Source: Trypanosoma brucei
Taxonomy: Eukaryota
Reading direction: 5' to 3'
Assembly: GCA_000002445.1 (NCBI GenBank)
Contig: CH464491.1
Span: 3,776,001 to 3,840,000, forward strand
Length of the DNA: 64,000 nucleotides
Below are positions 18,590-54,700 of this stretch, in pieces. Each line of letters starts with the position of its first letter. Position 1 is the stretch's first letter. The translations under genes and the position numbers were made by a program. The notes under the pieces are model-generated. The model saw nothing but the letters and a program-made list of their open reading frames with translations, searched no databases and was not told the origin of the DNA.

Positions 18590-18699
18590 ATAAAGGAACA
18601 ACGAGGGAAGAGGGCGAAAAAAAAACAAAGCAAGATTGGGAGCTTCAGCTCTCTCTATATTTGGTTGCATGAGAAAAAGAGGTCCGGCGGTGTGTGCGT

Positions 18700-18735
18700 G
18701 GGCAGGGGAGGGGGAAGGGGAGGCGGAGTGGGAAT
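18700..18735. repeat. G-rich tract with at least 4 G-runs (G-quadruplex-capable)
   Basis: Read directly: 'ggcaggggagggggaaggggaggcggagtggg'. Confidence 0.7.
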
Positions 18736-38960: not shown

Positions 38961-38964
38961 TAGA

Positions 38965-39100
38965 CGCTGGTATGAACATGAAAAGAAGAAAAAGGTGGGG
39001 AAGGGAGAGAAGGAAGAAAGGGAATGTCAGGGAGAAAATACGGAAAAGAAAAAGGAAAAGAAGGAGAGTCAGACTAACAAAGAAGAGGAGTAAGGGAAAG
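38965..39100. repeat. Polypurine (GA/GAA-rich) tract of about 135 nt immediately 3' of the CE1-paralogue stop codon
   Basis: Read directly: 'gaaaagaagaaaaaggtggggaagggagagaaggaagaaagggaa...gaaaagaaaaaggaaaagaaggagag...aagaagaggag'. Confidence 0.8.
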
Positions 39101-39829
39101 AAGGACCGCGTATTTGAGGCATTCCCCGTTATTTTTAAATGTTGTTATTACTATTATCTGTTCTGACCTTCAAGTTGGGTTGTGCAGGTGGCGAATCTTT
39201 GGCGTTACTGTTTCTTCACGATGGTGGTACAGGGAGCATGTGCCTCCTTTCAGTGTCATCTCGTTTTCTTTTTTTTTTTGTCTTTCGTCCAGAAACGATC
39301 AGACCAAAGCATTTATAGCAACCAGTGAACTAATGGTGCTTGCGTTAACATCACCTGCGGAGAAATGTGCATCTACTCGTGTAAATCTGAGTTTACATCA
39401 CGGAGACAAAATCCGACTGCCAGAAGCAGCAGCATACAAAACAGTGCACTGTACAAAATCGTGCAATGGGAGAAGTCTTCAAGTTGTACCGCGCACGCGG
39501 TGGTGTAACTCCATTCAGAATTGGAGCAAATTTCGGTGGTGGGCACGCTGATAATTTCAATCGACTTCCACTGTTCCTCATAAATGGCGTGAAAATTTTA
39601 TTTAACGAAGTGGAGTGGTGAAAAAGAGGCTACGTAGCCACTTGCAACAGATGGTGTTCCGGTAAGAGAAACAAGGTTAAGGTAAAACCGTTGCCAAAAC
39701 TGGCGAACCGAAATTTGACCGCTTCTTCCTTCTCGTTGGCGCTCAATAGTGGTAACAAGGTGCTTGGTACTGGAGCGCAGGGGAAAGCGGGTTTTGCGGT
39801 TTAACTCCCGTGGCACATGTACCAAAATA

Positions 39830-39922
39830 ATGATAACAATAATAATAATAATAGTCGTGAGCTCTGCGCGGAAAGGCCACTGTTGTGTGTGAGTGAGTGA
39901 GTGAGTGTGTGTGTGTGTGTGT
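39830..39922. repeat. Compound microsatellite (AAT)n ... (GTGA)n(GT)n
   Basis: Read directly: 'aataataataataatag' followed by 'gtgtgtgagtgagtgagtgagtgtgtgtgtgtgtgtgtaa'. Confidence 0.85.
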
Positions 39923-41358
39923 AATAACTGTCAATGAAGCTTCCAAATGAGCAACGTACTCATGGCAGGTCCGTCAGTTGCACCGATGCATTAATCTTGG
40001 GAAGTTCGGGTACACTATAGGTGCGAAACTCCAGGTTCCCGGCGCATAAAAATTCAAATGCAATGTAATCCACATGGCGTCTACGGCTCCTGGACGACAC
40101 ATAAGCAGTTGCGTTTGTGAAAGTTGCACTTGAGGTCATATGTGGAAATTTGGGGTTCTATGGGCATTCTCCGTTAATGGAATTCGAATTAATAAAAATG
40201 ATGCTTTTGAACGTCGTTTCCAAGCGGAGGCCTCAAAGGCGAGGACAAAAAGAAAAAAACAGTGGAAAAACATAACGTTGGACTGAGGGTTGGTTCTGTT
40301 GATTTAAAAAAAATCGGTCAAACGCTTCATTTCGGACCAACAGCTGTCATAGGCCTTCCGGAAGGAGCCGCATCGTGGCTGGTGAGAACAAACGGGTTTG
40401 GCGTGTGTTCCTCCGCTGTAACTCCAAATGTTAGCGCTTCGTTAAGTAACATGGGGGGAATATGCATTTTCAGGTGCGTAAATTAACTTACGTGGAACTT
40501 GCTGTTTTTTGTTACTACATATCTCAGTTATTTGCAGTATGTCCAACACAATACATGTCTTCACAGTGGCGAATAGTCTGCCCAGACACGCTGACAGTTG
40601 ACGCTGAAGGTAAGGCGCGTAAAGGTATGGCAGTATTGTGTGAATTCATGCAACATCAACATTGATACGTTGTGCCGGATGGCTCTGTTATCTACCGAAG
40701 TCCGCGTATGGTTCACAAAAAAAAATATTGGGAGTAGTTTTGTGGAAAGACATTTCAAGCTGCTTGATTTCCCACTTCCTCGTGACTGTGAAGGTGGCGG
40801 TAATTCAAAAGAAAATCATACTGCGGAGGCACTGGAGATTACAATTATTTTGCTGCGTTTAAACACCTGCACAGAGCATGTGCATAAGTTTATTTTCATT
40901 GAGAACAGCGACTTTGGGTGCAAGGGGATCGCTGCGTTGGTTACCGTTGGCTAACCCACTGCGTCTCTTCCTCCACATCTTTTTCAATGAATTCTTTTAC
41001 GTTTTCAGCACTTGCTTTTGCTCTTATTGTTTTCGCTGCGTTTCCGAAATCCAAAAGGAGTGCCGCCGACGCTACGAAGAAAAAATTATATCAAAAAAGA
41101 CATCTTGAATAATGTCTAATGATAATGGGGGTACAATTTTCAGGCATATTTATGAGAGAACTTCCCGTTTGCACCTATTCTCGTTTCGTTACTTTCCACC
41201 GCGGCCGGCATAGCACAGAGGGCAACCTCTCGTCGTGCCTTCATTTTCTCTCTTCAATATTTCATGGAAACAATTGTTTCGTTAAACTGTCGGTACAAAT
41301 AGTTCGTTGGCGTCACCGAACAATGAGCACATGAATTTAAAAAATAAATAAACTATCG

Positions 41359-41390
41359 GTGTGCGTGTGTGTGTGTGTGTGGGGGGGGGG
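41359..41390. repeat. (GT)n microsatellite fused to a G10 homopolymer run
   Basis: Read directly: 'gtgtgcgtgtgtgtgtgtgtgtgtgggggggggggaag'. A second G7 run lies at about 41505. Confidence 0.85.
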
Positions 41391-42942
41391 AAGTGCCTAA
41401 TGTAGAAATCGTTACCTTCTGTCGGTCAGTGAATGTGTAAGTGCTCTGTGCCATAATACCTCGTTGCACATTTTTAAGAGTCAAAGTAAATATTGTATTG
41501 GCGTGGGGGGGAACGTGTAAATTAACGGAGAGACAACACAACGAAGTCTCCGCTGCTAACGACTTTGGAAGCAAACGTATTATCGTAAAATTGCGGTAAC
41601 GCTATACTGCAGGTGAGAGAAATGTAAAGGATATGCGCGCTGGTCGAGTGTCCAACATGGGTGGAATACAAGTTACGTGTACGAAATAAACAAAAACACA
41701 TGTGACCTAAATTATATAGATTAAGAGGATGAAGTACAGGAAAGTCTTGAAGGAAACAATAACTCGTGGTCCTAACTCCCTTTCTTTTGAGATGCAGCAG
41801 GAAGACAATTACCTGTGTGTTGTTTGTGTAAAGGTGGAATGGGAAAGAGTTATGAGGGAAGAGCTGTGGATGCTGAGCAAGAGGAGTCGTGATGTAAAGC
41901 TAAGAGGAATGGTTGGAATTGAAATGGGATCGAGTGTGAATAAGGTGATGGTTGCGTTTTGTCTGGTACGGATCTCAGATGGCAATGACATATTTTGTAA
42001 TGTGGTTGAATATGAATAAATAAGCAAAAGGAAAGTTGGACAGAAACTCCCCCTTTAACATCTTCCATTAAAGGATGGAAGAATGTGGTTTTCAATCGTT
42101 AATTTTTAATAATGCTAGTTTCGTGGAGAAAGGGTAATGATTTCTCGGATGCAAAGGCCGATATTTTCAGACGGAGGAGAACAGAAATTGATGGAGTGTT
42201 ATATCGCATGAATGAGTAACAAAATATTTATCTTTACTACGGGGATGCAATATTTGTGTGTATTTATTCAAATTCTTATTTACTACACACACCGAGAAGT
42301 GGAGAACATCTCATTACAAATAGTTGGGTGCTCTACAGGGACTCATCTTCTGGAGTCTCAAAGTGGTTTGGGTTCGCCAGTATGAGTGAGCAATGGGAAG
42401 GTAAAGGTAAGTTGAAGAAATAGGTTCATTTATCGGCAAACAGGATGTAAAGGGACACTGTAAGCGTACGAATAGCTGTTTATTTGATTGTCTTTGGTAA
42501 TGTGTATATTTTATGATGACTGACAAAAAGGTTGTGTGTCACCCCTTGTGACTGCGGCGGGAGGGGCGCAAGGGGTAATCTATTGTTTTTGGTTGAGTGC
42601 TAACTGATGGTAGTGTGATGTTTCTCGCTGCGGTGCGGGGGGTAATATCCAGGTTAATGAGTGTGGGTCCACAACATCGAAGGCAGAACCTATTCCTACG
42701 CTGCTTTCCAATGCGTCAAAGCTCTGCAAACAAAACCGGCAATCCTCTCCCACCCAACCTCGCGGAGCCGCATGCTGTAATCAAATCCGCTTGCAAACTG
42801 CAGCAACCACTTTGTACAATTTTTTTTTTCCTGCGTCCCATGTGATAACTGTCGCATAAACGAGGGGTAGCGGCCAGCGCTACACATACCCACATTATGT
42901 ATGCATTTGCCTACCGTTTCAGTCATTTGTATTTCTATAGAC

Positions 42943-44154
42943 ATGCTTGCAACAGTAGTTTTGTTTGTTGTGGCATTGGGAGTTAGCGTCGGTGATATAA
43001 ACGCCGAGAGGGCGGCGCTGAAGTTGAAGGTAGCTCAAGGGGTTTGTGCAGCAACGAAGGCGCTGAAGTCAGTTCACAGATACACGGTAGAAAAGGTGAA
43101 GGAGGCTGAGGGAAAATTGGAAGATGTACAGAATATGGTGAAACTGGCGAAACTCAAGGTGCTGAGGGAAAAAAAGGCTGGTAGTGTCGATTGCAGAACG
43201 ATGGCGTTTTTCCTCAACTATACAGTGAAGAAGGTGTCCGGTATGATAGAGTTACTTCCGAAAATTAGGGAGCAGGGTTTAAATCTCACGGCGTCAGCGG
43301 GTATAGCTGCAGGGAGATTGGAAGAAATGATAAATGTATTTCACCAACCATCTGACAGGCAGGAGAGTGATATCTTTTTCTGCATTGCAGGTAAACAAGG
43401 TGAAGGAGTTACAAAAAGCGAATTGGCTGACTGCTTCAAGGGTGGGAGGGATGCGATTGACTCTTCCCATTTTGTGGCCTTTGGTGATGCCGAGGCAACG
43501 AAGGGTTGGCAAGATATTTTCAAGGAGAAGGACGGGCTGGAGGGAGCATTGAAGAAACATCTAACAGTGGACGACAACGACCCTAGGTTTACGAGGGGGG
43601 AGGGACGCGGATGTCAGTTGGTACACGGAATGCAGGGAGGGGGATATATCAAGGATGCGAACTTCACGGAGCACATGCTATGGGGGGATGGTATACTTGG
43701 GGTGAAGAAAGATGGAAATGGAACGACTGGATATGTAGGAAGCACGAGGGGTAGCGACTACGATCACGATATTCTTTGGGAGAAGGATCCAACGGCGAGT
43801 GTCCCCAGTCTTCACGCAACCGTAAGTGATTACCACTCTTTCAGTGGTTTGCTGCACAAGTATGACACCATTTACCGCAGTGTTACAGAGGAGTGGACTG
43901 CAGATTTAATCCAGAGAGATCCCGAGGCTACTGATTTGCTAACCGCATCGGAGCTCACCGTCGAGGACGTTGCTGCACTCAACAGCCGCACGAAGCAGGA
44001 GTGGCTTTCCCAGAAACACGCCAAGGAAGCGGACAAGGAGTTTCTAATGACAGAGATACGATTTTGCGGGAAACTGAAACGAAGGGGATTCATCAGACGA
44101 ATGGTGAAGAAGATCCTTGGCGGACTTCGTATAAGTTGGACATCGGAGGGTTAG
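42943..44154 (+). CDS. ESAG7/PAG-like VSG-fold surface/secreted glycoprotein with a signal peptide and no C-terminal GPI signal
   Basis: The track start at 42901 is ATG, and a second in-frame ATG at 42943 begins the signal peptide 'MLATVVLFVVALGVSVG'. 'AAGRLEEMINVF', 'FFCIAGKQG' and 'LADCFKGG' resemble ESAG6/7 transferrin-receptor-family blocks (from memory). There are several NxT/S sites. The C-terminus is hydrophilic. Confidence 0.55.
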   Translation: MLATVVLFVVALGVSVGDINAERAALKLKVAQGVCAATKALKSVHRYTVEKVKEAEGKLEDVQNMVKLAKLKVLREKKAGSVDCRTMAFFLNYTVKKVSGMIELLPKIREQGLNLTASAGIAAGRLEEMINVFHQPSDRQESDIFFCIAGKQGEGVTKSELADCFKGGRDAIDSSHFVAFGDAEATKGWQDIFKEKDGLEGALKKHLTVDDNDPRFTRGEGRGCQLVHGMQGGGYIKDANFTEHMLWGDGILGVKKDGNGTTGYVGSTRGSDYDHDILWEKDPTASVPSLHATVSDYHSFSGLLHKYDTIYRSVTEEWTADLIQRDPEATDLLTASELTVEDVAALNSRTKQEWLSQKHAKEADKEFLMTEIRFCGKLKRRGFIRRMVKKILGGLRISWTSEG

Positions 44155-44284
44155 CAGTTTGTTTTGTGTGTGTCAACAGTTCTTTATTTGCAAATACGGA
44201 GGTTTGTACTGACTTCTTTGTCAATGGGTATTCGTGCAGGTGTACGTGTAGTGCTGTCTCTTTATTCCTGAAGTTATTGCCATT

Positions 44285-45394
44285 ATGAGGTTCATGCTAA
44301 GGTTAGTTATGTTGCTTGGTGTCCCCGTTGTATTTGCGGATGTGGCTACTATTGATAACAAACCACTGTCTAACAAAACAGTAGAGAGCATTTGTGATTT
44401 GTCAAAGATGTTGAAATTTGGGGTTCGTGCTTATGTCCTCAGTAAGACAAGGGAAGTGGAAGAGAAGTTGAAAGAGGTGACAATAGTAGGGAATTATGCG
44501 AAGCTGAAGATGCTGACGGGTAATTTAAGTGGCTTTGAGTGCGCCCAAAAGAAAATATACGTTACACATACACTGGAAACGAAAAGGGCAAGGATCAGTG
44601 ATTTGTTTAGGGACATGTGGAGCACAGGGGCGAAGCTGGTAGGCTCGTCAGGTCTTGTAGCAGGGAGGTTGGACGAGTTGGTAAATGTGTTTGCAAGTGC
44701 ATGGGCGAACGAAAGTCATTACTGTGCCCAAGGCTTTAAAAAAATTGTTACTTGCAATACATCAAAAGATAGTAGTGTGTCCTTAGAAGATTTTGACCGC
44801 AAGGGTCTAGCAAGTATTGTGGATGAAACACTCAGCATTAACAGCGATGAAGTGTTAGAAAACAAGAGCACTAGTTGCCTGCTAACTCAGGGGTTCAATG
44901 GGGGAGGATATCTGAAATACTCAAACAGCCAAGATCAAACTAAGAGTTCCGGACTGAAAAGGAATCTTGTTTGGGGTGACGGAATATTTGGTATCAGGAG
45001 AGACGGAAATGGTAGTACCTCGTCTCAAGGTATTGTTTCTAGTGCAGAGTATCCGACGGATGTCATGTGGGAGCACCAGCCATCAAAAATGATTCCCATT
45101 ATCAAATCGACAGTGAAAGATTTTGTAGACTTTCAAAAAGGCTTTAAGGAAATTGGCGTTGAGTTGAGGGCCCTTTTTAAGGAGTTGAAAGCGAAGGGTA
45201 TGATGACCACTGTGGCTGACAGTGATATTGCCGACAGTGATCAGCAGCTACTGAACCACAATTTCAAGATGTGCGGGAAGTTTTCTGTTGGAAAGGGAGA
45301 TTATTTTAAAGGGAGTGGGGTAGTGGGTCATACCACGTTGGGTGGAAACTGCATGCGTGCTGTTTTTTTTGTATTCTCTGTGGTATTGTGGTAA
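44285..45394 (+). CDS. ESAG6/PAG-like VSG-fold surface glycoprotein, paralogue of the upstream gene, with a signal peptide and a C-terminal GPI-anchor signal
   Basis: ATG at 44285. The signal peptide is 'MRFMLRLVMLLGVPVVFA'. 'VAGRLDELVNVF' and 'LVWGDGIFGIRRDGNG' are paralogous to 'AAGRLEEMINVF' and 'LWGDGILGVKKDGNG' of the upstream gene. The hydrophobic C-terminus 'AVFFVFSVVLW' is typical of a GPI signal. Confidence 0.6.
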   Translation: MRFMLRLVMLLGVPVVFADVATIDNKPLSNKTVESICDLSKMLKFGVRAYVLSKTREVEEKLKEVTIVGNYAKLKMLTGNLSGFECAQKKIYVTHTLETKRARISDLFRDMWSTGAKLVGSSGLVAGRLDELVNVFASAWANESHYCAQGFKKIVTCNTSKDSSVSLEDFDRKGLASIVDETLSINSDEVLENKSTSCLLTQGFNGGGYLKYSNSQDQTKSSGLKRNLVWGDGIFGIRRDGNGSTSSQGIVSSAEYPTDVMWEHQPSKMIPIIKSTVKDFVDFQKGFKEIGVELRALFKELKAKGMMTTVADSDIADSDQQLLNHNFKMCGKFSVGKGDYFKGSGVVGHTTLGGNCMRAVFFVFSVVLW

Positions 45395-45495
45395 CTGCAA
45401 TTCTAATGAGTGCTCTCCTTTTTGTTGTATGGAAACACTTATTCTGCTTACGCGATCCAAATATTTCTCATAAACTTTTAATTTTTAAAGTGAGA

Positions 45496-46872
45496 ATGGA
45501 AAAGCTTGGAATATTGCTTTTGGCTACCACTACGTTTGTAGTTGGGACAACTACGGAAAATAAGGAAAACCTCCGCAATCAGCAAGAATTTAATCAACTA
45601 TGCAGGATTTTGAGACTTGTGGAAGGGGATCCAGGACAAGTCGTTAAGGAGCCTCCAAACTTGGGAATCCTCATAGAAGTGCTCCAAAAAATGGTGAAGG
45701 CAACCTTTGTAAAGGAGTCGTCTTACCAAGAAGCAGTTGATGCAAGGGAAAAATGGAAGAGCACAGACAGTACGGTCGAAACAAAGAATATTATGGATAA
45801 GCAACGTGCGGATGATTTGGTGAGGTATAAGATTACACACGAGAAACTCAAGAAACTCCTCGCGAAAGCCAAGATGCTGGTGAGCAGGATCAAGGAGGAA
45901 AGGTACTTGGCATATGTATCGAGGAATGCTGCACTAGAGAAGATGGCGAAAGTTGTATATGGAAGCAGCGCAGAAAAAATGTTCAGGAATGAAACTGAAT
46001 TTGAAAAGTTTTTGGCCAATTCACAAGGCACAATAGTGGGTAAAACGGCCAAGGAGACATGTGGGATGTCAAATGATAAAATGAAGAATGTAAGTTTTGC
46101 GGGTTACTCACTGGTTGGAGACTTTTTCTGCTTGTGTGTTGGTGAAAATAATAATGCCACGCTATGCGACAAAAGCTTCAGTGGACCCAGGGAGGAGCAT
46201 AAGTGGACAAAAGTGATGTTTGAGGACAAACTTGTTGACTTTGCTGCTGGTTGGTTTAAGATAAGAGGTTTGTGTTATGTCAATGCCACGAGTGGAATAA
46301 AGGATGTGGTAACTCCAGAAAATATTAGCACGGAGATTGTAGCCTTCAACAAGATGCTTGGAAGACAGCGGGATGATGTTCAAATTTATCGAAGAGAAGC
46401 CGAATCATATCGACAGTACATTCTTGGGAGGGTTGAGCAAGTAGGATTTACTGACAGTGCAATATGCACTGGAGAGCACCAGCATATGTGTGTAAATTAC
46501 GCACAATGCTTGGTCTCGAATAAAGGTATTCCATGGCAACTCAAGCTAATGGAGGCAGAGGAGGATCTAGAGGATGTGGAAAAACATAACATGGAGGTGC
46601 ATGTGCTAATTGGGAGGTTGGATAAACTCATTGAGAAAATCAAGAAAGCAGCAGAGCAACTCAGTCAAGAGATGGAAGGAATTGATGTTGCAGTTGAGAA
46701 GGTTCAGTTGCTGGAGGAAGAGATCGAAGAAAATGAAACCACGGGAAAAAGTGAGGCAACCGCAGGAGAGTTTAATGATAATGCGCAACCTGAGGAGGGG
46801 AGTTTAGATAAATGTGAATATTGGGGTATGTTTTCTATTTTGTTCGGGGTTGTAGCATTTAGCCTCGTGTAA
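45496..46872 (+). CDS. VSG-fold GPI-anchored surface glycoprotein, second subfamily of the array
   Basis: The track start at 45388 is GTG, and the first ATG at 45496 begins the signal peptide 'MEKLGILLLATTTFVVG'. The Cys-rich core carries 'GDFFCLCVGENNNATLCDK'. An acidic coiled-coil segment follows, then the GPI-signal-like C-terminus 'YWGMFSILFGVVAFSLV'. Confidence 0.55.
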   Translation: MEKLGILLLATTTFVVGTTTENKENLRNQQEFNQLCRILRLVEGDPGQVVKEPPNLGILIEVLQKMVKATFVKESSYQEAVDAREKWKSTDSTVETKNIMDKQRADDLVRYKITHEKLKKLLAKAKMLVSRIKEERYLAYVSRNAALEKMAKVVYGSSAEKMFRNETEFEKFLANSQGTIVGKTAKETCGMSNDKMKNVSFAGYSLVGDFFCLCVGENNNATLCDKSFSGPREEHKWTKVMFEDKLVDFAAGWFKIRGLCYVNATSGIKDVVTPENISTEIVAFNKMLGRQRDDVQIYRREAESYRQYILGRVEQVGFTDSAICTGEHQHMCVNYAQCLVSNKGIPWQLKLMEAEEDLEDVEKHNMEVHVLIGRLDKLIEKIKKAAEQLSQEMEGIDVAVEKVQLLEEEIEENETTGKSEATAGEFNDNAQPEEGSLDKCEYWGMFSILFGVVAFSLV

Positions 46873-47006
46873 TGTTTTTGTTTGACGTTGGTGTTATGGT
46901 GATGAATCTCTTTGTTTGACCTGACTGATTAAGGCGAAAATAACGCTGCTGATAACTTTGTACCTCCCTTTTCCACCTTTTACCTCTTAAGATATAAACA
47001 ACAACA

Positions 47007-48374
47007 ATGAGGAGTGAAATAGTGCTTGTTGTTGGGTTGTTTTTAACTGTTTTATTCTCTTCTCCACAGGGTGATTTGGCTGGATATAAATGGAGCACAG
47101 AATCTATTAACTGGAGTGCGATTACGAAACTCATTGGAGTCAATGACGAGTACCATAACGCTGGCGAGTTCGAAGCTCTTTGCAAGATTTACAGAATCAC
47201 GCAGGCAGAAGCCCCGCAGCCTTTCTTTAAGAATCGTGAGAGGGAAGGTGAGATTGTGAAGAAGTTGCAGGAAATGATCAGTGAGACGGAGGCTGCGGGT
47301 GGTAATAAAGTTTTGAATAAATCAGCTAACAGCACAACAGCATATCAGGAGATAAAGAAACTTCTTGAAAAGGCGAAAAAGCTGAAGGAAGAAATAGAAG
47401 TCAACAGGACAAAAGCCTTGAATGCAAGTCGCTCTGCTGAAGAAAATATGCTGAGGGCTGTGTATGGCGATGCTGTGGATGTGGCAAGAAATGGGAATAA
47501 AACATTGGAGGAGGCCATGAGGGGAAACAAGTCACTGCTGTTCAATAGTGTTGATGATGCAGGTACAAGTTGTGGTTCTTACGGAGAGAAGCTGGTTGGC
47601 AAGACACTAATCAATGACTTTTTCTGCCTATGTGTGGGAGAGGCTAAGAACGTGAAAATAAAGCAAAATCTTCTGCACCCCGGGCATGTCACACCTTATG
47701 ACGGTGTGTATAATGGATACAATTGTCCCTGCAAGGATGAAATAAGGAGACCGAAAAGCGGCAGTTGGACTATGATGGCTGAATATTGTAAAGGTGGCGA
47801 AGACATTTGTAACCCTGACAACGTAACATATGACCATACTGAAGCATGGGACGTGATCAGTAAAGCTTGTGTATACAAAAATGTTGCATCTAATGTAAAA
47901 ACCTTGAAGAGTGCACTGGCTCAGTTTGATGCGTTGTTGAATTTGGAACAGGATGAGTATCAAGTCAGGGGTATTTTTGGTTATGTTAGAACGGAAAATA
48001 ACGAAAATCGCACGTGCACAGGTCACACTGCTGGGTTTACATGTGTCAGTTACAATCACACACTTGAAAATGGTGGAATTCCTTGGTACAACCGCCTTAC
48101 TAATGCTACCGAGCAACTACAAGAAATGGCAAAGTATGCCAAAGAAGCTGACAGTCATCTTCATGAATTGGAAGAGTACCAACATGAGGCAGAGGAAATA
48201 TTTCTTGAGGTGAAACTTGGTGGTGATGCAGAGCTGTGGAAAAATAGCCGAGCTCAAGGTGAAAGTGACAGTGAAGGTTATGATACTGGGGTAAATAATG
48301 ATGGACTTACTCATTTGAATGTGGAAACTGGGGGGTTTACATTATTAATTTTATCTCTTATTTGTATCTTTTAG
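47007..48374 (+). CDS. VSG-fold GPI-anchored surface glycoprotein, paralogue of 45496-46872
   Basis: ATG at 47007. The signal peptide is 'MRSEIVLVVGLFLTVLFSS'. 'NDFFCLCVGEAKN', 'GIPWYNRL' and the acidic helical region are colinear with the upstream gene ('GDFFCLCVGENNN', 'GIPWQLKL'). The GPI-signal-like end is 'GGFTLLILSLICIF'. There are many NxS/T sites. Confidence 0.55.
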   Translation: MRSEIVLVVGLFLTVLFSSPQGDLAGYKWSTESINWSAITKLIGVNDEYHNAGEFEALCKIYRITQAEAPQPFFKNREREGEIVKKLQEMISETEAAGGNKVLNKSANSTTAYQEIKKLLEKAKKLKEEIEVNRTKALNASRSAEENMLRAVYGDAVDVARNGNKTLEEAMRGNKSLLFNSVDDAGTSCGSYGEKLVGKTLINDFFCLCVGEAKNVKIKQNLLHPGHVTPYDGVYNGYNCPCKDEIRRPKSGSWTMMAEYCKGGEDICNPDNVTYDHTEAWDVISKACVYKNVASNVKTLKSALAQFDALLNLEQDEYQVRGIFGYVRTENNENRTCTGHTAGFTCVSYNHTLENGGIPWYNRLTNATEQLQEMAKYAKEADSHLHELEEYQHEAEEIFLEVKLGGDAELWKNSRAQGESDSEGYDTGVNNDGLTHLNVETGGFTLLILSLICIF

Positions 48375-48576
48375 TTTGATTCTATGCCACCAACTATATT
48401 ATGTTATGCCATGTTTTTTTATTTCGTTTCTTTGTTGTGTTTGAAATGATATGGTGCATGCATATATGCATATACATGACTGCATCACTGTGTATTTGTG
48501 TTTTTCTCACGATATGAAACTGTATTAATTACCCTTTAGATATTTTCTTCTCTCATTTAGATAAACAATAAAGGAA

Positions 48577-49707
48577 ATGTCTCTGTTTATTGCAGCGGTG
48601 TATTTGACAGCGTTGACCGTGGTTGAGGTGGTCATGGGGAAGCATGCTGGTAAGGCCATGACTGAGAAGGATGCCGAGACATTGTGTAATCTTAGCTATG
48701 CTTTGAGGGTTGTGAGCGCTGACATTCAAAGAAAGCAAAAAGATGCGACTGCAAAGGTGGATGAAGTGCGAGAGTGGCGGCACCGGCATGGTGTAAAGGG
48801 GAGGACATGGAAAGCAATAGTACAGGGTTTGGAGAAGATAAGGGTTGTTAATGAAAGTTACATGGAAGGTATAAAGAAAACATATGGGGAAATGGAAAAG
48901 ATAATGAACGGTACGGATAGTGCCCTTTTGATAATGGATACTAGTTTTTTAAGCATTGTGAGAGTGTCCTATCATGTTGTGAATGCGTCAGAATCTATTG
49001 GACAGGTATTGAGGGATCTGGTGGTGATGTTTGAGAAAACGAAGGATGAAAAAGATAGTTGGTGCTGTTTGGTGAAAGGTAAAGAAGCGTTGAGTGGCGA
49101 AGGATGTGGAAATGGTGGGGATGGTAATGATCAGAAATACAAAGTGGTTGGTATACCCGAAAAATGTAAGACATCTGTTACTGTGAATACAACGAGCGAA
49201 GGAATAATGACATTACTAAAAGAACATGAGAGAAGTCAAGAAATCGAATTTACAACTAATGAGAGACCGAATTGCTGGATCATGGGTACGGAAAAAGTTG
49301 CTAATGGAGGAGCTGGATCTTTCATAGTGGGAGCTACTGGAGGCTTTGTTACGTACCGTAACGGCGATGCTGTTACTCTGAGATCTCAGAATATGATACC
49401 CGAACTCATCAAGAACTACACCTTAGTTAGAAAGGGATATGAAAGTATCAAGGACAAATACAATAAGTTAAAACCAAATTTTGGACCTTTTGATGAACAC
49501 GAAAACCAACTAAAAGAATTGTTAACTCAGAGCCCGATGGTACGTAGGTATTTCAAGGAGAGTGGGAAGAAGCGCAAGGGAGGTGAGGATGATGATGATG
49601 TAATAGATGATGAAGGATCCTCCATGAGAAAACAATGGGCGGCAGCAGGCGTAATCTCTCGCTGCAGTTCTAGTTTTGTAGCTTTATCATTTTGCACGGT
49701 ATTGTAG
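48577..49707 (+). CDS. More divergent member of the same surface-protein array (signal peptide plus GPI-signal-like C-terminus)
   Basis: ATG at 48577. The signal peptide is 'MSLFIAAVYLTALTVVEVVMG'. 'IGQVLRDLVVMF' echoes the '...GRLxExxNVF' helix of the first two genes. It has a G-rich 'ANGGAGSFIVGATGGF' segment and a hydrophobic C-terminus 'FVALSFCTVL'. Confidence 0.5.
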   Translation: MSLFIAAVYLTALTVVEVVMGKHAGKAMTEKDAETLCNLSYALRVVSADIQRKQKDATAKVDEVREWRHRHGVKGRTWKAIVQGLEKIRVVNESYMEGIKKTYGEMEKIMNGTDSALLIMDTSFLSIVRVSYHVVNASESIGQVLRDLVVMFEKTKDEKDSWCCLVKGKEALSGEGCGNGGDGNDQKYKVVGIPEKCKTSVTVNTTSEGIMTLLKEHERSQEIEFTTNERPNCWIMGTEKVANGGAGSFIVGATGGFVTYRNGDAVTLRSQNMIPELIKNYTLVRKGYESIKDKYNKLKPNFGPFDEHENQLKELLTQSPMVRRYFKESGKKRKGGEDDDDVIDDEGSSMRKQWAAAGVISRCSSSFVALSFCTVL

Positions 49708-51772
49708 GCAACAGTTTTATTATTGGGATTATTCACTTTTTGTATATTATGTTTGTGTGTGATGAAATTGTGGCTCTTCCTCCGCTTGATAAACTGATGT
49801 AGCGTAGTGCAGATGATGATGCACCTCGCGGTGAAGTTAGCAATCTTAACCCGTTTTTTTTTTGCAGTATTGAGGCAGAATACGTTGAGTGCTTTTCTAT
49901 TAATGTTGAAGAAGTTGATAGAGTGCTCGAGTCCATATGTTATCTTAGTTGCCTTTCGAGCACATTAAACAGGTTGTACACCGATGGTGAGCAGGAGCTG
50001 TTTGTGAACGAGGAGGTGCACGCAAATGTGTCTCGTATAGTAGGGGCGATATGGAAGGGGAAAGCAAGTTCGAGCACGGAACAGCGTGGTGTTATTAGCG
50101 GTGCAGTGGAAGAACGTACCGAAATAAGCTGGAATACCTCACATCATATGGGAATGGAATGGGAAATCTTTCGGAGAAAATTGGTGGATTATTCGCTAAA
50201 GTTAGTGACGGTGTAGGTGAGTGGGGAATCTACTACCTTGCACCTCCTGCACGCAATTAAATGTTATACGGCCATTGCGGATGTAGTTAGTACGATATGG
50301 AATGATGTTGTGGTGAAGCATGGATCCTCAATATGGATAAATGCAAACATCAAGTTTGAAGGACGAGTGTGATTACCAAACGTGTCCATTAGGATGTGGC
50401 GTCAGGAAAAGTGCTCTTAGAAAAAAAAAGGAAGGGAGGCTGCTCTTGTGTGGTGCAAGCAAGTGCCCGATGCCACGGATAAATTTAGACGCTTGTGGGG
50501 TTATGAACAACCCAAGTAATGTTCTGAAATGGAAAGACAGTCGTTTCTTCTTTCCAACGACGGATGTCCGTGATGTCTTCACTCCCCTCATCGTTTCTTC
50601 TGCTAGTCAACTACCTTCGAGACTCTCGGATATGATCGCAAATGTAACTTCCTTCCACTCACACTTCAACGAAACCCGCAGTAAGTTTATGTCACGTACC
50701 CACGACACTCTCCTTGTCACCGCGGGTAGAGATTCCGCTTTTAACAATCACGCATGTACGAGTTATCTCCTCTGCTCGTAACATTCCCACATTGATACCT
50801 CTGCGTGCGTGTTTTCTTTTTCTACTGTTATGTCCTCATGAGCCCCTTTTAATTCTGTGGTAAGGGCAATATTTCAAACACGTATGTGTGGCCGTGGGTG
50901 TTACTTTTTGTGTCAGGAATCACGATTGCTACGCGTTGCATTTGCTCCGAGACCGCCGACGCGGTTAATAACTTGTGCGACCAACTTGAGTTCGGGTGTG
51001 AGCGCTCGCTTTTGTGACGAGTGCGCGGCGGCCTTAATGTTGCAATCGTGATGTGATTCGGGTTAAAATGAGGTATCGAGTGGCGTGAGATGCAGCGATA
51101 CCGCATGCTATCGGTAATGGTGCAAGAGATAGAGGTTACTTAAGCTTATACTTGAGCCTAAACAATGCACTTGACGGTTTGTCAAACGCGTCACCACGCG
51201 TGCGCCTATCGTTGTGCTTTTTTTTTTTTTAGTAGAAGGGCGCGCATGTCATGAATGACTCACGCGATTTTTTTCTTCATAAAAAGAGGGTGGACGATAC
51301 CGCAACGGCCGGTTGGGAAAAGCCGCTCATTGCAGAGTGCGGCTCTATAATAAGTTCACGCATGTGAATGTTGCGTGTTGTGAGGAGGAACCCAACTCCC
51401 TCTCGTGTCGTTGTGGCCCCGTTTCTATGAGAAATTCATCCCCTGAAAGTGTGTTTGTGTGTGGGAAAAGCAAGCAATGACTGGGAGTTGATCAGTAAAC
51501 AAGCTGTGGCTAACTGAGCCCCAAAGTTCCACTTCGTTGCGCGGTTAACCCCAGTGAAAGGAAAGCAGCGGGCAACAATCGTCGGAAAACGGGATGCATC
51601 TGCAGAACGCGATAACTGGCGAGAAAACGTTTTTTTTTTTTAAATCCAAGCTCGCAGGCAGTTAATGTAAAAGCAACTTAAAAAGAACTAAGAGCCCAAA
51701 GTAAGGATTATAACAGGACGGGTAAAAAAATAAATAAATAAATAAACGCGTTAAAGTTAACCGGTAAAAGGG
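49708..51772. other. Convergent strand-switch region between the + strand and - strand polycistronic units (putative Pol II termination zone)
   Basis: The last + strand CDS ends at 49707 and the first long - strand CDS ends (3') at 51773. In between lie only short ORFs, poly-T tracts and GC-rich palindromic stretches such as 'aacgcgtcaccacgcgtgcgcc'. Confidence 0.7.
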
Positions 51773-54700
51773 TTACCACCATCCTCTGTGTACCGTAGTG
51801 TGGCGGACAACACCTCTCCTAATGGATGGATCAACGACTCCGTTATGTGATGTATATCCTCCAAACTCTGTGGGACGTGCCCTCCGGAGTGGCGAGGGTT
51901 CAGCTCGCGGCACTTCCCCAAAACATGCCACGCTCCCTCCAAGCGGCAACTGAGGTGCGCTGCCATGAGCAAATGCCCCGGACGCATTTGCGACACACCG
52001 CGGGCCCCACGTGAAGGGGGCGAAGCACTCGGCTTTTGAGAAAGTGCTTTGGCGATAGGCATCAACGCCGACGTGTGACAACTGGCGGCCGGAAGTGGCA
52101 GCATTTGTTGTCACCCGAAGTTGGTGCACGACTCCCGTGCGGTGCGGAGGGGTGCTGGCGTGTGGACATTCAAAAATGCTCCGCTGAAAAGTGGGATGGC
52201 CAGTGGAATACGTAGCAGGAGGCGTTGTGTGAGGAAAGAGTGGCGAGACACCAGACTCTATTGTGTTAACTATGGGATGTGTCGCTGCTGCGCGTGTATC
52301 CCCATAGCATCCTTGGTAATGGGCGTGCCTTCCAACCGTTGTATAAGGGGAAACGCCTTGTACATTAAAACGAAACCGTTTTGATGGGCGCGCGCCGCCA
52401 CGTCCAACATCTGTTACGGGGTTTGGAGGAGGCGACAGGGTTTTGGGAAGGACGACTTCCATTCCACCAAGCAGCATGTCGTCCCCTTCCTTGCACGATA
52501 TTTGTGGGCTCCACCGTGTTTCTGGTGAGTCACCAGATCCGTTTTCTTTGTTCTCCCGACGTCTCTTGTAGCCAAATGGAGATGACACTACCCTGATTCC
52601 CATGGAAGACGCTATCTGAGCCTTCCGCTCTAACAAATACTTGAATGCCTCGTCCGTTTGACCAGCTTCAGTATCCCGTCGCCTACTGCTTTCCGAGTCC
52701 GCCATTTTCGTCTTGACGACAGTTGCCTCGTCATCGCAGCCGACAGCGGCCGAATGAGCCCCCCGTTCAGCACTGGTTGTGCCAATCTCCCCTCCTTCAA
52801 GATCCGAAGCGCACTGATCGGCAATAACACTCGTGTCCCCTCTCACTTGATGCGGTGTCGTGACGAAGGGTTCGGTTGATCGCCGGTTGTGTGGCACGGG
52901 CTCATTTATGCTGTCGCGGTCGGCGTTCCGATCGGTAACCTTCACGTCGTCTGGCGTCTTCTTCAGGGTGCCTTGCATTTTTTCCGCAGTGGTTCGATGC
53001 TTTGGCTGCTGCGCGAATCCGGTCGCTGTTTGCAGCTTTACCGAATCGCCCGCTTCGACGCCGCCCACCTTCAGTGTGGCGTTGCAGTCGTTCCCGAGAA
53101 AGTTCCCGTTGGTGAGGCTCCCCATAATTTGTCCCCGATACCCGGGGGAAACCTGGAAGGTGAAAACGAGCGGCCTCCGATTGGCGGTCCTGCAATCGAT
53201 CTGACGAAGAAGGTGTGTACGATCAAGTTCGAGATCCCCAACAAGCAGTATCATATGGCACTGCTCTAGTGGAGGATCTCTTCGTGTGGAGACGCCCGCC
53301 TTATAGGAGACTACGACACGCACGGTGCCGGCTTCCGTAACATGCTCAAGCGCTAAGTTGTACATTGGACGCGAGTGGCACTTTTCCTGGAGATCTGTCC
53401 CGAATGGGGGATTCTTACCGCATAGAGCCTCCAACTTTCTTGGGTTGGCTTGCAGCACGTCAGAAAAGTTCTTTATTCCACCTTCATGGAGCGCCTTCGC
53501 CATGTTTTCACCAATTCCCTCAATTTGCTTAATGATGAGTCCATCCCACCAAGTGCCCTGTTCAATACACCTGCAAAGAAGTGAGCTCTGTTGGATGAGG
53601 GAAAAGCATGGATGGGTTGTGGCGTAGTCGACGACAAAGCGAGCGACGCGTGGGGCTACCGTCCACAGGCGCACGCAATCGTTCCTGAGCGAAAAATCCG
53701 ATACCGCCACTCGATCAAGATGGGCCTGGATGAGCACATACACTTTGTGCCAATCTTCCCTCACCTCACGCCCGCCGCGCATTCCACAGTTGAGCGGGAA
53801 TCGGATAACTTTGTTGAGCTCGTTAAGGTGCTTCTTATCCCCTTGCCGCAGTCGAAGACCGTCAAATTCGCTGGAGTGGCAAAAAACACGGAGGACTTGG
53901 TGCAGAGTGAAGGACTCACCTGTTTTTTGTTGAATTTGCCCTTCCTCCTCTGCCATTGCCGCGCCCATTATTTGAGGTGCTCCCTGCCGACCGCTCTGAT
54001 GGGAAAACCGGTGCAGTAACTCTCTGTTGAGTGTTTCAACCGTTTTGAAGAGAATATACCGACGTGCCATGGCGCGTCCTACGCGAGTACTCTCTACGGC
54101 GCAATTCACATCGCTTACATCACGGCAGCCGGTGCTGCTGGGTGACCTGTCCTGGAGGGTTTGTGTAGCTGACTCATTCAAAATGACATCCCCTGCCTTT
54201 AGTGCATCGCGGCCGATCGCGACACAGCCTTGTTTTTCAAGTTCGGCTAACATCCTCCGCATCAGTTGATCCGCGAACTGTTCTCGGTCAAAATCGTCTT
54301 CCTCTTGTTTGGTAGAGAAAATAATGCCGTAGCGGCGTGGGCAGCGTCGAAGCCGGATCCAAAAAAAAGTTGTTTTGATCCACTCCACACCAAGTGATAA
54401 GTTGTGAATAGTTCGCAGGGCCACCTCTGCATTCACATGTTCAATCATGTTCTGGTGCAGGCGACTCTCTACGGTTGTGCACGTGTCTCCGTGTTGCAAT
54501 GGTTTGTACAGGTACGCCTTGTCATCCGTTGTGAGCACAAGTGCGACGCCGTGCGTGTCGAGTCCTGGTCGTCCAGCGCGACCGCTCATTTGTGCAATTT
54601 CCGAAAGGGGAAGGTCGTCACGGTTACCATTCTTGAAGAACGTTGTGCCCTTGACGATCACAAGGTGTGCGGGAAGGTTGACGCCCAGTGCCAGGGTTGT

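What the first reader, a model, noticed from the sequence alone, without database searches (positions are those of the whole stretch)
45496..49707. Three further GPI-signal-bearing surface-protein genes of a second subfamily ('FFCLCVGE' Cys core plus acidic coiled coil) completing a five-gene tandem array at the end of the transcription unit
Genes 45496-46872 and 47007-48374 are clear paralogues, sharing 'DFFCLCVGE' and 'GIPW'. Both have long E/D-rich helical segments reminiscent of GARP/HpHbR-like elongated three-helix bundles. The gene at 48577-49707 is more divergent. All have signal peptides, many N-glycosylation sequons and GPI-type C-termini. The array is the last thing transcribed before the convergent strand-switch region. 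In trypanosomes that position is associated with base J and H3.V-dependent attenuation, so these genes may be stage-restricted or normally silenced surface antigens.
Basis: partly seen in the sequence, partly recalled or inferred. Interest (0 to 1): 0.55.

Follow-up and report, generated by a model that had tools for sequence, protein, structure and literature searches.

The report
Known bloodstream-stage ESAG2/ESAG11 gene cluster
These three genes are already-annotated Trypanosoma brucei chromosome 11 genes (two ESAG2-like, one ESAG11-like) from a five-gene cluster published in 2010 as strongly switched on in bloodstream parasites, so the finding is real but ordinary.

Summary
The window is T. 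brucei brucei TREU927 chromosome 11. The three ORFs are intact genes, Tb11.01.6230, .6240 and .6250. Together with the two PAG-like genes upstream they form "differentially expressed gene cluster 1" of Veitch et al. 2010. That cluster is 41-90-fold higher in bloodstream than in procyclic forms. All ten of their RT-PCR primers map exactly inside the five ORFs.

Genes 3 and 4 carry the b-type VSG N-terminal domain (Pfam VSG_B). Gene 4 is 77% identical to a true expression-site ESAG2. Gene 3 is a deep paralogue, 22% identical to gene 4. The "FFCLCVGE" and "GIPW" motifs are family-wide b-type VSG hallmarks, not a new subfamily.

Gene 5 is not a divergent member of that group. It is an ESAG11, 60-66% identical to named ESAG11s, with a predicted three-helix bundle. 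A frameshifted ESAG1 pseudogene follows it, so the order matches the ESAG2-11-1 block of bloodstream expression sites.

Silencing by base J/H3.V is not supported. The genes are abundantly expressed in the base-J-containing stage, and they are absent from the published H3.V/J-responsive gene list. Gene 3's protein has been detected by mass spectrometry. dN/dS is 0.26-0.37. Already known; low interest.

The parts
45496..46872 (+). Gene 3 = Tb11.01.6230 (EAN80406). It is annotated 'ESAG2, putative' from ATG 45406, giving 488 aa. It is a b-type VSG-domain protein and a deep-branching ESAG2-like paralogue.
   Evidence: Pfam VSG_B 1.5e-51, 176 bits. The exact 488-aa sequence is EAN80406. Veitch primers 6230-A/B map at 45819 and 46394 with 0 mismatches. 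It is 95% identical to the T. b. gambiense orthologue, 43% to paralogue P0002 and 24% to BES ESAG2 P0034. The protein was detected by MS in bloodstream forms (PMC4003530).
47007..48374 (+). Gene 4 = Tb11.01.6240 (EAN80407). It is a chromosome-internal ESAG2 (GRESAG2).
   Evidence: Pfam VSG_B 4.8e-27. It is 77% identical over full length to the Lister 427 expression-site ESAG2 (P0034 = CAQ57316). Primers 6240-A/B map exactly. phmmer hits VSG615 (8ok8) at E 1e-4.
48577..49707 (+). Gene 5 = Tb11.01.6250 (EAN80408). It is a chromosome-internal ESAG11 (GRESAG11).
   Evidence: It is 60-66% identical to ten named ESAG11 proteins, including Q9Y021, with E 1e-114 to 1e-155. There is no Pfam hit. The AF2 model has three long helices (30-88, 93-154, 273-316). 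Its top 17 Foldseek PDB hits are trypanosome three-helix-bundle surface proteins. Primers 6250-A/B map exactly.
50099..50781 (+). Frameshifted ESAG1 pseudogene. It completes an ESAG2-ESAG11-ESAG1 order.
   Evidence: Pfam ESAG1 matches lie in three different frames. Profile positions 5-36 fall in 50099-50257 (4.2e-08), 47-71 in 50217-50369 (5.5e-04) and 87-215 in 50341-50781 (1.9e-22).
46988..49635 (+). Dispersed segmental duplicate spanning ESAG2, the intergenic spacer and ESAG11.
   Evidence: blastn gives 78% identity over 2688 bp, collinear with locus L003 on another T. b. gambiense chromosome. L003 carries a VSG_B gene followed by an ESAG11.
42901..45394 (+). The two upstream members of the cluster: Tb11.01.6210 (PAG2-like, 42901-44154) and Tb11.01.6220 (PAG4-like, 44285-45394). 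Both are a-type VSG-domain, ESAG6/7-related proteins (Fam14).
   Evidence: Pfam Trypan_glycop 1e-12 and 1.2e-09. Primers map exactly. Tb11.01.6220 is the Fam14 example gene in the cell-surface phylome.
50782..51772 (.). Convergent strand-switch region between the ESAG1 pseudogene and the - strand helicase gene (51773-55999).
   Evidence: ORF orientation is shown. No tRNA, Rfam family or tandem array was found there. Only T-runs and a (TAAA)6 repeat are present.

Best explanation
Identity (shown). The three ORFs are the known T. brucei genes Tb11.01.6230, .6240 and .6250. They are the distal part of a chromosome-internal cluster of 'genes related to ESAGs'. Genes 3 and 4 encode b-type VSG N-terminal-domain proteins of the ESAG2 family (cell-surface phylome Fam13). 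They have no VSG C-terminal domain. Gene 5 encodes an ESAG11 (Fam3), predicted to be a three-helix bundle. A decayed ESAG1 pseudogene follows. Genes 4, 5 and the pseudogene therefore reproduce the ESAG2-11-1 block found just upstream of the VSG in bloodstream expression sites. The ESAG2-ESAG11 segment is a dispersed duplicate that is also present on other chromosomes.

Expression (shown in the literature). All five cluster genes are co-regulated and 41-90-fold more abundant in bloodstream than in procyclic forms. Spliced transcripts downstream of the two PAG-like genes are seen only in bloodstream forms. Gene 3's product is found among tomato-lectin-binding glycoproteins of bloodstream forms.

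How it works (inferred). Each protein enters the ER through an N-terminal signal peptide. It is then N-glycosylated and has its C-terminal hydrophobic tail exchanged for a GPI anchor. It is displayed as an invariant, low-abundance bloodstream-stage surface glycoprotein beneath or among the VSG coat. Tagged family members place ESAG2 on the cell body and a GRESAG11 on the cell body plus flagellum. These proteins share their fold with the transferrin, haptoglobin-haemoglobin, factor H and C3 receptors. They are therefore most likely host-ligand receptors or immune modulators; the ligands are unknown. How the co-regulation is achieved is unresolved. It could be stage-specific transcription or termination around the PAG-like genes, or mRNA stability.
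For: Organism and accessions: exact protein matches to EAN80404-EAN80409 on the 5.26-Mb TREU927 chromosome.

Link to the published cluster: 10 of 10 RT-PCR primers of Veitch 2010 map with 0 mismatches inside the five ORFs. That paper's text and Table 2 give 74.8-, 40.7- and 59.8-fold BSF/PCF for .6230.6240 and .6250.

Family placement: Pfam VSG_B for genes 3 and 4. Gene 4 is 77% identical to BES ESAG2. Gene 5 is 60-66% identical to ESAG11s. The BES order '...ESAG2, ESAG11 and ESAG1' is stated in PMC2567434.

Duplicated block: 78% identity over 2688 bp with L003.

Targeting signals and sequon excess.

Fold of gene 5.

Protein-level detection of gene 3: PMC4003530.

Spliced-leader evidence: PMC2916883.

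Microarray evidence for .6210 and .6220: PMC2771046 and PMC3605285 Table S1.

Localisation of family members: PMC4587319.

Purifying selection: dN/dS 0.26-0.37.
Against: No function or ligand has been shown for ESAG2 or ESAG11.

Surface localisation was shown for other family members, not for these three gene products.

Gene 5's GPI tail in TREU927 is frameshift-derived and may be a poor GPI signal.

The gene 3 structural model is low-confidence (pLDDT 47.7). Its matches to class B VSGs are weak, E 0.07-0.3.

Gene 3 is only 24% identical to ESAG2. It scores better against T. congolense VSGs (E 2.6e-33) than against BES ESAG2 (E 1.7e-14). Its 'ESAG2' label is therefore loose.
Confidence: 0.88

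Rival explanations
1. The genes lie downstream of a base J/H3.V-marked termination zone at the end of the transcription unit. They are therefore attenuated or silenced in wild-type cells and form a reservoir of variable surface antigens.
For: The position at the PTU 3' end next to a convergent strand switch is real. Published work shows that many VSG, ESAG and RHS genes at PTU 3' ends are derepressed when J, H3.V or PNUTS is lost (PMC4721609 and PMC7055916).
Against: The genes are among the most strongly bloodstream-enriched mRNAs. Gene 3's protein is detectable in bloodstream forms. Base J is characteristic of that same stage (PMC4721609 discussion).

None of Tb427tmp.01.6210-6250 appears in the H3.V KO / DMOG differential-expression table, although 11 other Tb427tmp.01 genes do.

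Orthologues are 95-98% identical between subspecies with dN/dS below 0.4. There are no 70-bp repeats.
Confidence: 0.05
2. The cluster is an autonomous, RNA polymerase I-transcribed 'mini expression site', or has its own stage-specific promoter in the 3.9-kb ORF-free gap upstream of gene 1. In that case it is not the tail of the upstream Pol II unit.
For: Five adjacent genes are co-regulated to a similar degree, with very short intergenic spacers. This is unusual for Pol II units and prompted the same speculation by Veitch et al..

The gene content and order mirror a BES. A 3.9-kb gap with no ORF over 145 aa precedes the cluster.

Composition changes over the cluster: GC falls to 0.40-0.43 and GC skew rises to 0.28-0.30, against 0.02-0.13 upstream.
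Against: Veitch et al. found no similarity to procyclin or VSG Pol I promoters upstream. I found no shared upstream DNA between this locus and the paralogous loci L002 and L003. No direct polymerase data are available here.
Confidence: 0.12
3. The genes are decaying relics of a transposed expression-site fragment and have no function of their own.
For: The ESAG1 copy is frameshifted in three frames. Gene 5 carries a 2-bp deletion that changes its C-terminal tail in TREU927. The ESAG2 copy in the paralogous block L003 is frameshifted near its 3' end. ESAG11 is usually a pseudogene within BESs (PMC2567434).
Against: Genes 3, 4 and 5 are full-length and intact in T. b. brucei and T. b. gambiense. 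Genes 4 and 5 are also full-length in T. equiperdum-group genomes. dN/dS is 0.26-0.37. The genes are highly expressed, and gene 3 is translated.
Confidence: 0.05

Closest known systems
[quoted passage not shown] 2010, BMC Genomics 11:124 (PMC2837033)
   Same: It is the same locus. [quoted passage not shown] All ten published primers map here with 0 mismatches.
   Different: Nothing differs in kind. This analysis adds four points: the ESAG1 pseudogene, the better start codon for gene 3, the 2-bp tail frameshift in gene 5, and the 78% duplicated ESAG2-ESAG11 block.
ESAG2-11-1 block of bloodstream VSG expression sites (Hertz-Fowler et al. 2008, PMC2567434)
   Same: The gene order is the same: ESAG2, ESAG11, ESAG1. 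Gene 4 is 77% identical to a BES ESAG2, and gene 5 is 60-66% identical to ESAG11s.
   Different: This copy is chromosome-internal and sits at the end of a housekeeping + strand unit. It has no 70-bp repeats or VSG downstream. ESAG1 is a pseudogene here. ESAG11 is intact here, whereas it is usually a pseudogene in BESs.
b-type VSGs of T. congolense and T. brucei (Pfam VSG_B; phylome Fam13/16/0b)
   Same: They share the N-terminal domain, the PhiPhiCLC and GIxW motifs, a signal peptide and a GPI signal.
   Different: Genes 3 and 4 are single-copy and conserved between subspecies (95-97% identical). They are not variant antigens and have no VSG C-terminal domain.
Trypanosome three-helix-bundle receptors (TfR ESAG6/7, HpHbR, ISG65, factor H receptor, GARP, MISP)
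   Same: The gene 5 model's best PDB matches are these proteins: Foldseek probability 0.93-1.0, E 3e-4 to 0.08. All are elongated helical bundles with a membrane-distal head.
   Different: There is no detectable sequence homology. No ligand is known. The head region of the model is low-confidence.
Base J/H3.V/PJW-repressed genes at PTU 3' ends (Reynolds 2016; Kieft 2020)
   Same: They occupy the same genomic position and include the same gene families (ESAG, VSG-like).
   Different: These genes are highly expressed in wild-type bloodstream forms. They are not listed among the H3.V/J-responsive genes.

Membership tests
ESAG2 / b-type VSG-domain family (Pfam PF13206 VSG_B; phylome Fam13) | VSG_B domain above Pfam's gathering score | tested here: met
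   Gene 3 scores 176.2 bits and gene 4 scores 95.6 bits, against a cut-off of 25. Gene 5 has no hit.
ESAG2 / b-type VSG-domain family (Pfam PF13206 VSG_B; phylome Fam13) | Conserved cysteine motif (PhiPhiC-L-C) and G-I-x-W motif of b-type N-terminal domains | tested here: met
   Both motifs are present in genes 3 and 4. The first occurs in 117 of 136 family representatives and G[IVL]xW in 61 of 136.
ESAG2 / b-type VSG-domain family (Pfam PF13206 VSG_B; phylome Fam13) | Close identity to an ESAG2 resident in a bloodstream expression site | tested here: met
   The test is met for gene 4, which is 77% identical over full length to CAQ57316. It is not met for gene 3, which is 24% identical at E 1.7e-14. 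Gene 3 is ESAG2-like only in the broad sense.
ESAG2 / b-type VSG-domain family (Pfam PF13206 VSG_B; phylome Fam13) | Signal peptide, GPI-type C-terminal tail, and no VSG C-terminal domain | tested here: met
   Hydrophobic N- and C-termini are shown by a Kyte-Doolittle heuristic. There is no Trypan_glycop_C hit. PredGPI was positive for Tb11.01.6230 according to PMC4003530.
ESAG11 (phylome Fam3) | Full-length sequence similarity to characterised or named ESAG11 proteins | tested here: met
   Gene 5 is 60-66% identical over 96% of its length to ten ESAG11s, including Q9Y021, with 125 invariant alignment columns.
ESAG11 (phylome Fam3) | C-terminal GPI-addition signal matching the family consensus | tested here: inconclusive
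   The T. b. gambiense orthologue ends in the consensus-like ...GVISLAAVLVL. The TREU927 copy has a 2-bp deletion that gives ...GVISRCSSSFVALSFCTVL. That tail is still hydrophobic (KD 1.90 over 12 aa) but atypical.
ESAG11 (phylome Fam3) | Position immediately downstream of ESAG2 and upstream of ESAG1 | tested here: met
   The order gene 4, gene 5, ESAG1 pseudogene is shown. The BES order is given in PMC2567434.
GARP / HpHbR-type three-helix-bundle proteins (phylome Fam50 and relatives) | Sequence-level homology to GARP/BARP/HpHbR | tested here: not met
   None of the three genes has a Pfam or PDB-sequence hit to these proteins.
GARP / HpHbR-type three-helix-bundle proteins (phylome Fam50 and relatives) | Elongated three-helix-bundle fold | tested here: met
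   The test is met for gene 5. Its model has helices with pLDDT 70-93, and its hits include HpHbR (E 1.4e-3) and GARP (E 0.08). For gene 3 the model is too poor (pLDDT 47.7) to count. Its fold is inferred from VSG_B homology.
Base J/H3.V-repressed PTU-terminal genes | Location at the 3' end of a Pol II unit next to a convergent strand switch | tested here: met
   ORF orientation is shown.
Base J/H3.V-repressed PTU-terminal genes | Low or absent mRNA in wild-type bloodstream forms | tested here: not met
   The literature reports 41-90-fold higher expression in bloodstream than in procyclic forms, confirmed by RT-PCR. Microarray signals were 10444-22849 in cultured bloodstream forms. Gene 3's protein was found by MS.
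Base J/H3.V-repressed PTU-terminal genes | Derepression on loss of H3.V and/or base J | tested here: not met
   No Tb427tmp.01.62xx entry appears in the supplementary tables of PMC4721609, as far as they are held as text, while 11 other Tb427tmp.01 entries are listed. The PNUTS RNAi table of PMC7055916 is truncated in storage, so that source is uninformative.
Base J/H3.V-repressed PTU-terminal genes | Base J and H3.V occupancy upstream of or over the genes | not testable with these tools
   No ChIP or J-IP tracks are available here.
Variant surface antigens (VSG sensu stricto) | Upstream 70-bp repeats, a VSG C-terminal domain, and hypervariability between strains | tested here: not met
   There is no tandem array other than short (AAT)n, (TG)n and (TAAA)n repeats. 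There is no C-terminal-domain hit. Identity to T. b. gambiense is 95-98% with dN/dS 0.26-0.37.

The most novel reading that the evidence does not exclude
The locus may be a chromosome-internal 'proto-expression site'. It has a GPI-minus/GPI-plus pair of ESAG6/7-like PAG genes, then a conserved adjacent pair of divergent b-type VSG-domain genes (gene 3-type plus gene 4-type), then ESAG11 and ESAG1 in BES order. The adjacent pair is also found next to each other in the chromosome-4-type array L002.

Under this reading the locus is switched on as a unit in bloodstream forms by stage-specific control of Pol II termination or initiation around the PAG-like genes, rather than by mRNA stability. Genes 3 and 4 might then form a heterodimeric receptor analogous to ESAG6/ESAG7.

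The available evidence does not exclude this. That evidence is the co-regulation, the very short spacers, the spliced transcripts downstream of the PAGs only in bloodstream forms, and the 3.9-kb empty gap upstream. None of it tests the idea directly.
Probability: 0.12. Interest if true: 0.55.

Novelty: already known. Interest (0 to 1): 0.12.

Why it matters
It matters little as a discovery. The genes are annotated, they are assigned to cell-surface phylome families, and the five-gene cluster was published in 2010 as a bloodstream-specific co-regulated unit.

Three open questions remain of moderate interest to trypanosome biologists. First, ESAG2 and ESAG11 still have no known ligand or function. 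They share the fold of receptors that were each important discoveries: the transferrin, haptoglobin-haemoglobin, factor H and C3 receptors. Second, how five adjacent genes in a polycistronic unit come to be co-regulated 40-90-fold is unresolved, in an organism thought to lack gene-specific transcriptional control. Third, the locus preserves expression-site gene order at an internal site, which bears on how expression sites were assembled.

Tried and rejected
1. The word-indexed protein search with gene 3 and with a gene 3/4 profile returned only orthologues. The candidate list was apparently swamped (8000 candidates scored). The exhaustive representative search, followed by name look-ups, was needed to place genes 3 and 4.

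2. I guessed the new-style IDs as Tb927.11.14430-14470, using an offset remembered from other genes. No paper text holds these IDs. They remain unverified, and only the Tb11.01 IDs are used in this report.

3. I searched the supplements of the J/H3.V and PNUTS papers for the locus. The result was negative for Reynolds 2016. It was uninformative for Kieft 2020, because that file was cut when stored.

4. Reynolds 2016 describes a siRNA-producing 'cSSR 11.9' at 3826-3835 kb of chromosome 11. The T. b. gambiense copy of this locus lies at 3829-3850 kb. The assemblies use different coordinates, so I could not establish or exclude identity.

5. The AF2 model of gene 3, built from 5 sequences, was too poor (pLDDT 47.7) to give independent fold evidence.

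6. Direct PDB sequence searches with gene 3, gene 5 and the ESAG11 profile found nothing significant.

7. Rfam, tRNA, repeat and tandem-repeat scans of 38-52.5 kb found no RNA gene, no 70-bp repeat and no notable element in the upstream gap or the strand-switch region.

8. The dN/dS calculation for the flanking helicase failed. The T. b. gambiense gene model is frameshifted.

Full report
WHAT IS THERE

The region holds five + strand ORFs:
- g1, 42901-44154
- g2, 44285-45394
- g3, 45496-46872 (the GTG-started ORF begins at 45388)
- g4, 47007-48374
- g5, 48577-49707

The next long ORF is a 1408-aa helicase on the - strand at 51773-55999. Every ORF of 200 aa or more from 57 to 49707 is on the + strand. 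Every one from 51773 onward is on the - strand. The array therefore sits at the 3' end of a + strand unit, next to a convergent strand-switch region.

- 'FFCLCVGE' and 'GIPW' occur once each in g3 and g4.
- g3, g4 and g5 each have a hydrophobic N-terminus, a hydrophobic C-terminal tail and no internal TM-like segment.
- N-x-S/T sequons number 6, 11 and 6, which is 2.5-3 times the shuffle expectation.
- The C-terminal thirds of g3 and g4 are acidic.

g3 and g4 are paralogues, but distant ones: 22% identity, E 2.5e-14. g5 has no significant similarity to either.

IDENTITY OF THE LOCUS

Exact-sequence look-ups show that g1, g2, g4, g5, the helicase and the upstream 629-aa gene are EAN80404, EAN80405, EAN80407, EAN80408, EAN80409 and EAN80403. 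These are proteins of T. brucei brucei TREU927, on a 5.26-Mb chromosome. g3 is EAN80406 when translated from ATG 45406, giving 488 aa.

The source annotations are:
- g1: PAG2-like
- g2: PAG4, putative
- g3: ESAG2, putative
- g4: ESAG, putative (ESAG2 in UniProt)
- g5: ESAG, putative (ESAG11 in UniProt)

The T. b. gambiense chromosome 11 carries the same gene order (L001).

Veitch et al. 2010 (PMC2837033) describe 'five contiguous genes (Tb11.01.6210 ... [quoted passage not shown] PAG2 and PAG4'. These genes were up-regulated 41-90-fold in bloodstream forms and confirmed by RT-PCR. I mapped all ten of their primers onto the window. Each pair falls with zero mismatches inside g1, g2, g3, g4 and g5 respectively. 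The finding is therefore this published cluster.

FAMILY PLACEMENT

g3 and g4. Pfam gives VSG_B (b-type VSG N-terminal domain) for g3 (1.5e-51) and g4 (4.8e-27). It gives the a-type VSG domain for g1 and g2, and nothing for g5.

An exhaustive profile search returned 138 relatives. BLAST against them, followed by name look-ups, gave the following:
- g4 is 77% identical over full length to an ESAG2 from a Lister 427 bloodstream expression site (CAQ57316).
- g4 is 45% identical to a chromosome-4 'ESAG' (AAZ10919 group).
- g3's nearest relative outside orthologues is a 43%-identical T. equiperdum protein (P0002).
- Beyond that, both genes match T. congolense VSGs at 26-30%.
- g3 is only 24% identical to the BES ESAG2.

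So g4 is a bona fide GRESAG2. g3 is a deep-branching b-type VSG-domain paralogue. Both correspond to cell-surface phylome Fam13, 'ESAG2' (12 T. brucei and 254 T. congolense members; PMC3605285 Table S1).

PhiPhiC[LIVM]C occurs in 117 of 136 representatives, and GIPW in 28.

g5. It is 60-66% identical to ten named ESAG11 proteins, including Q9Y021. It therefore belongs to Fam3, not to the g3/g4 family.

Structures. An AF2 model of g5 was built from 11 sequences. Its mean pLDDT is 59.8, but 70-93 over the three long helices at 30-88, 93-154 and 273-316. Its top 17 Foldseek PDB hits are:
- the T. brucei transferrin receptor
- HpHbR
- ISG65
- the factor H receptor
- MISP
- GARP
- VSGs

Probabilities are up to 1.0 and E-values run from 3e-4 to 0.2. 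There is no sequence-level membership.

The g3 model was poor (pLDDT 47.7). Its best hits were class B VSGs at E 0.07-0.3. A g3/g4 profile hits VSG615 at 2.7e-4.

A SIXTH ELEMENT AND EXPRESSION-SITE COLLINEARITY

Pieces of the Pfam ESAG1 profile lie between g5 and the strand switch, in three different reading frames:
- profile positions 5-36 in 50099-50257
- profile positions 47-71 in 50217-50369
- profile positions 87-215 in 50341-50781

This is a frameshifted ESAG1 pseudogene.

Hertz-Fowler et al. [quoted passage not shown] They refer to the 'ESAG2-11-1 cluster' (PMC2567434). The window's g4, g5 and pseudogene reproduce that block. g1 and g2 are relatives of ESAG6/7 (Fam14/15).

The ESAG2-ESAG11 segment, including its spacer, is a dispersed duplicate. 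Window 46988-49635 aligns at 78% identity over 2688 bp with a locus on another T. b. gambiense chromosome (L003). Veitch's Table 2 lists further ESAG2-ESAG11 pairs on chromosome 1.

A T. equiperdum contig (L002) carries a g3-like gene (43-46%) directly followed by a g4-like gene (45%). Further downstream it has an ESAG11-related ORF (25%, E 1.6e-8). The g3-type/g4-type adjacency is therefore old and conserved.

EXPRESSION AND THE BASE J/H3.V IDEA

Several published data sets bear on expression:
- Veitch 2010 gives BSF/PCF ratios of 74.8, 40.7 and 59.8 for g3, g4 and g5.
- Microarrays show g1 and g2 higher in cultured bloodstream than in procyclic forms (PMC2771046; PMC3605285 Table S1).
- Spliced-leader trapping found no mature transcripts downstream of PAG genes at five of six sites. 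The exception was downstream of Tb11.01.6210-6220, where spliced transcripts were present in bloodstream forms and absent in procyclics (PMC2916883).
- Tb11.01.6230 protein was identified by LC-MS/MS among tomato-lectin-binding glycoproteins of bloodstream forms (PMC4003530).

However, they are strongly ON in the stage that contains base J, not silenced.

The H3.V KO / DMOG differential-expression tables of Reynolds 2016 list 11 Tb427tmp.01 genes, none of them in the .62xx range. The PNUTS RNAi table is truncated in storage and is uninformative. J and H3.V occupancy itself could not be examined.

SELECTION

I compared the genes with T. b. gambiense.

| Gene | dS | dN | dN/dS | Amino-acid identity |
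|---|---|---|---|---|
| g3 | 0.083 | 0.028 | 0.34 | 95.1% |
| g4 | 0.052 | 0.014 | 0.26 | 97.4% |
| g5 | 0.042 | 0.016 | 0.37 | 97.6% |
| G5-IP (neighbour) | 0.0096 | 0.0014 | 0.14 | 99.7% |

The array evolves several-fold faster at both kinds of site than its housekeeping neighbour. It still shows net purifying selection. This does not fit a hypervariable antigen.

In g3, 9 of the 24 differences fall within 11 residues. This could be a small conversion tract or a variable exposed loop.

GENE-MODEL DETAILS

The annotated start of g3 (45406) leaves only 11 nt after the g2 stop codon. Nakanishi et al. noted that the annotated protein has no obvious signal peptide.

Several points favour the ATG at 45496:
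- It gives MEKLGILLLATTTFVVG....
- It aligns with the N-terminus of paralogue P0002.
- It is preceded by a pyrimidine-rich stretch and an AG at 45489-90.

This is an inference, because splice-site data were not available.

g5 in TREU927 has a 2-bp deletion near 49655 relative to T. b. gambiense. It replaces the family-consensus tail ...GVISLAAVLVL with ...GVISRCSSSFVALSFCTVL. Whether this still works as a GPI signal is uncertain.

MECHANISM

Shown:
- the identity of the genes
- their family placement
- co-regulated bloodstream-specific mRNA
- translation and glycosylation of g3

Inferred:
- ER entry, N-glycosylation and GPI anchoring.
- Display as invariant bloodstream-stage surface glycoproteins. 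Tagged family members place ESAG2 on the cell body and a GRESAG11 on the cell body plus flagellum (PMC4587319).
- A likely role as host-ligand receptors or immune modulators, by analogy with the other solved members of this fold.

Unresolved: how the five genes are co-regulated. Veitch et al. speculated about Pol I transcription but found no promoter similarity. I found nothing notable in the 3.9-kb gap upstream or in the strand-switch region.

VERDICT

g5 belongs to a different family, the motifs are family-wide, and an ESAG1 pseudogene was missed. It is wrong on silencing and on antigenic variability. The feature is already annotated and published, so novelty is nil and interest is low.

Noticed in passing
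window 42901-45394: g1 (PAG2-like) ends in a basic, non-hydrophobic tail (...RRMVKKILGGLRISWTSEG; best 12-aa KD 0.73). g2 (PAG4-like) ends in a hydrophobic GPI-type tail (KD 2.28). The pair therefore has the same GPI-minus/GPI-plus layout as ESAG7/ESAG6, the heterodimeric transferrin receptor. g1's likely signal peptide starts at Met15.
   Followed up: partly
window 50099-50781: A frameshifted ESAG1 pseudogene lies here. Its Pfam ESAG1 pieces fall in three reading frames.
   Followed up: yes
window ~49655 (3' end of gene 5): There is a 2-bp deletion relative to T. b. gambiense. It shifts the last ~15 codons and replaces the ESAG11 consensus GPI tail with RCSSSFVALSFCTVL. The protein becomes 8 residues longer.
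   Followed up: partly
window 45394-45496: The GenBank start of gene 3 (ATG 45406) lies 11 nt after the stop codon of gene 2 and gives an N-terminus without a clear signal peptide. The ATG at 45496 follows a pyrimidine-rich stretch and an AG. It matches the N-terminus of a paralogue.
   Followed up: partly
window 46066-46098 (gene 3 residues 191-201 of the 458-aa model): Nine of the 24 amino-acid differences between the T. b. brucei and T. b. gambiense gene 3 fall within 11 residues, just upstream of the FFCLC motif. This suggests a small gene-conversion tract or a variable exposed loop.
   Followed up: no
window 42000-50000 versus 1-38000: The cluster is compositionally distinct from the rest of the + strand unit. 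GC is 0.40-0.46 and GC skew 0.22-0.30, against GC 0.44-0.52 and skew mostly 0.02-0.13 upstream. Synonymous divergence from T. b. gambiense is 3-9 times that of the neighbouring G5-IP gene.
   Followed up: partly
window 38961-42900: A 3.9-kb stretch between the G5-IP gene and gene 1 has no ORF above 145 aa. It contains (AAT)9 and (TG)19 microsatellites at 39826-39922 and a second GT-rich run at 41361-41389. There is no Rfam or tRNA hit. It could hold a long UTR, or control elements for the cluster.
   Followed up: partly
L002 1925-4548 and 7183-7989 (T. equiperdum contig CZPT02001283): This is a second array in which a gene 3-like and a gene 4-like VSG_B gene are directly adjacent. Five further same-strand ORFs without Pfam hits follow (371, 306, 333, 470 and 297 aa), together with an ESAG11-related ORF.
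   Followed up: partly
L003 6442-7822 (T. b. gambiense, 2.16-Mb chromosome): The ESAG2 copy in the paralogous ESAG2-ESAG11 block is split over two reading frames near its 3' end (tblastn HSPs 1-354 and 345-455). It is probably a pseudogene or a truncated gene.
   Followed up: no
L001 16357-20582 (T. b. gambiense orthologue of the helicase at window 51773-55999): The gambiense gene model is 1 nt out of register with a clean ORF and is flagged 'LOW QUALITY PROTEIN' by NCBI. A straight translation of the listed coordinates gives 38 stops. This is probably an assembly frameshift.
   Followed up: no
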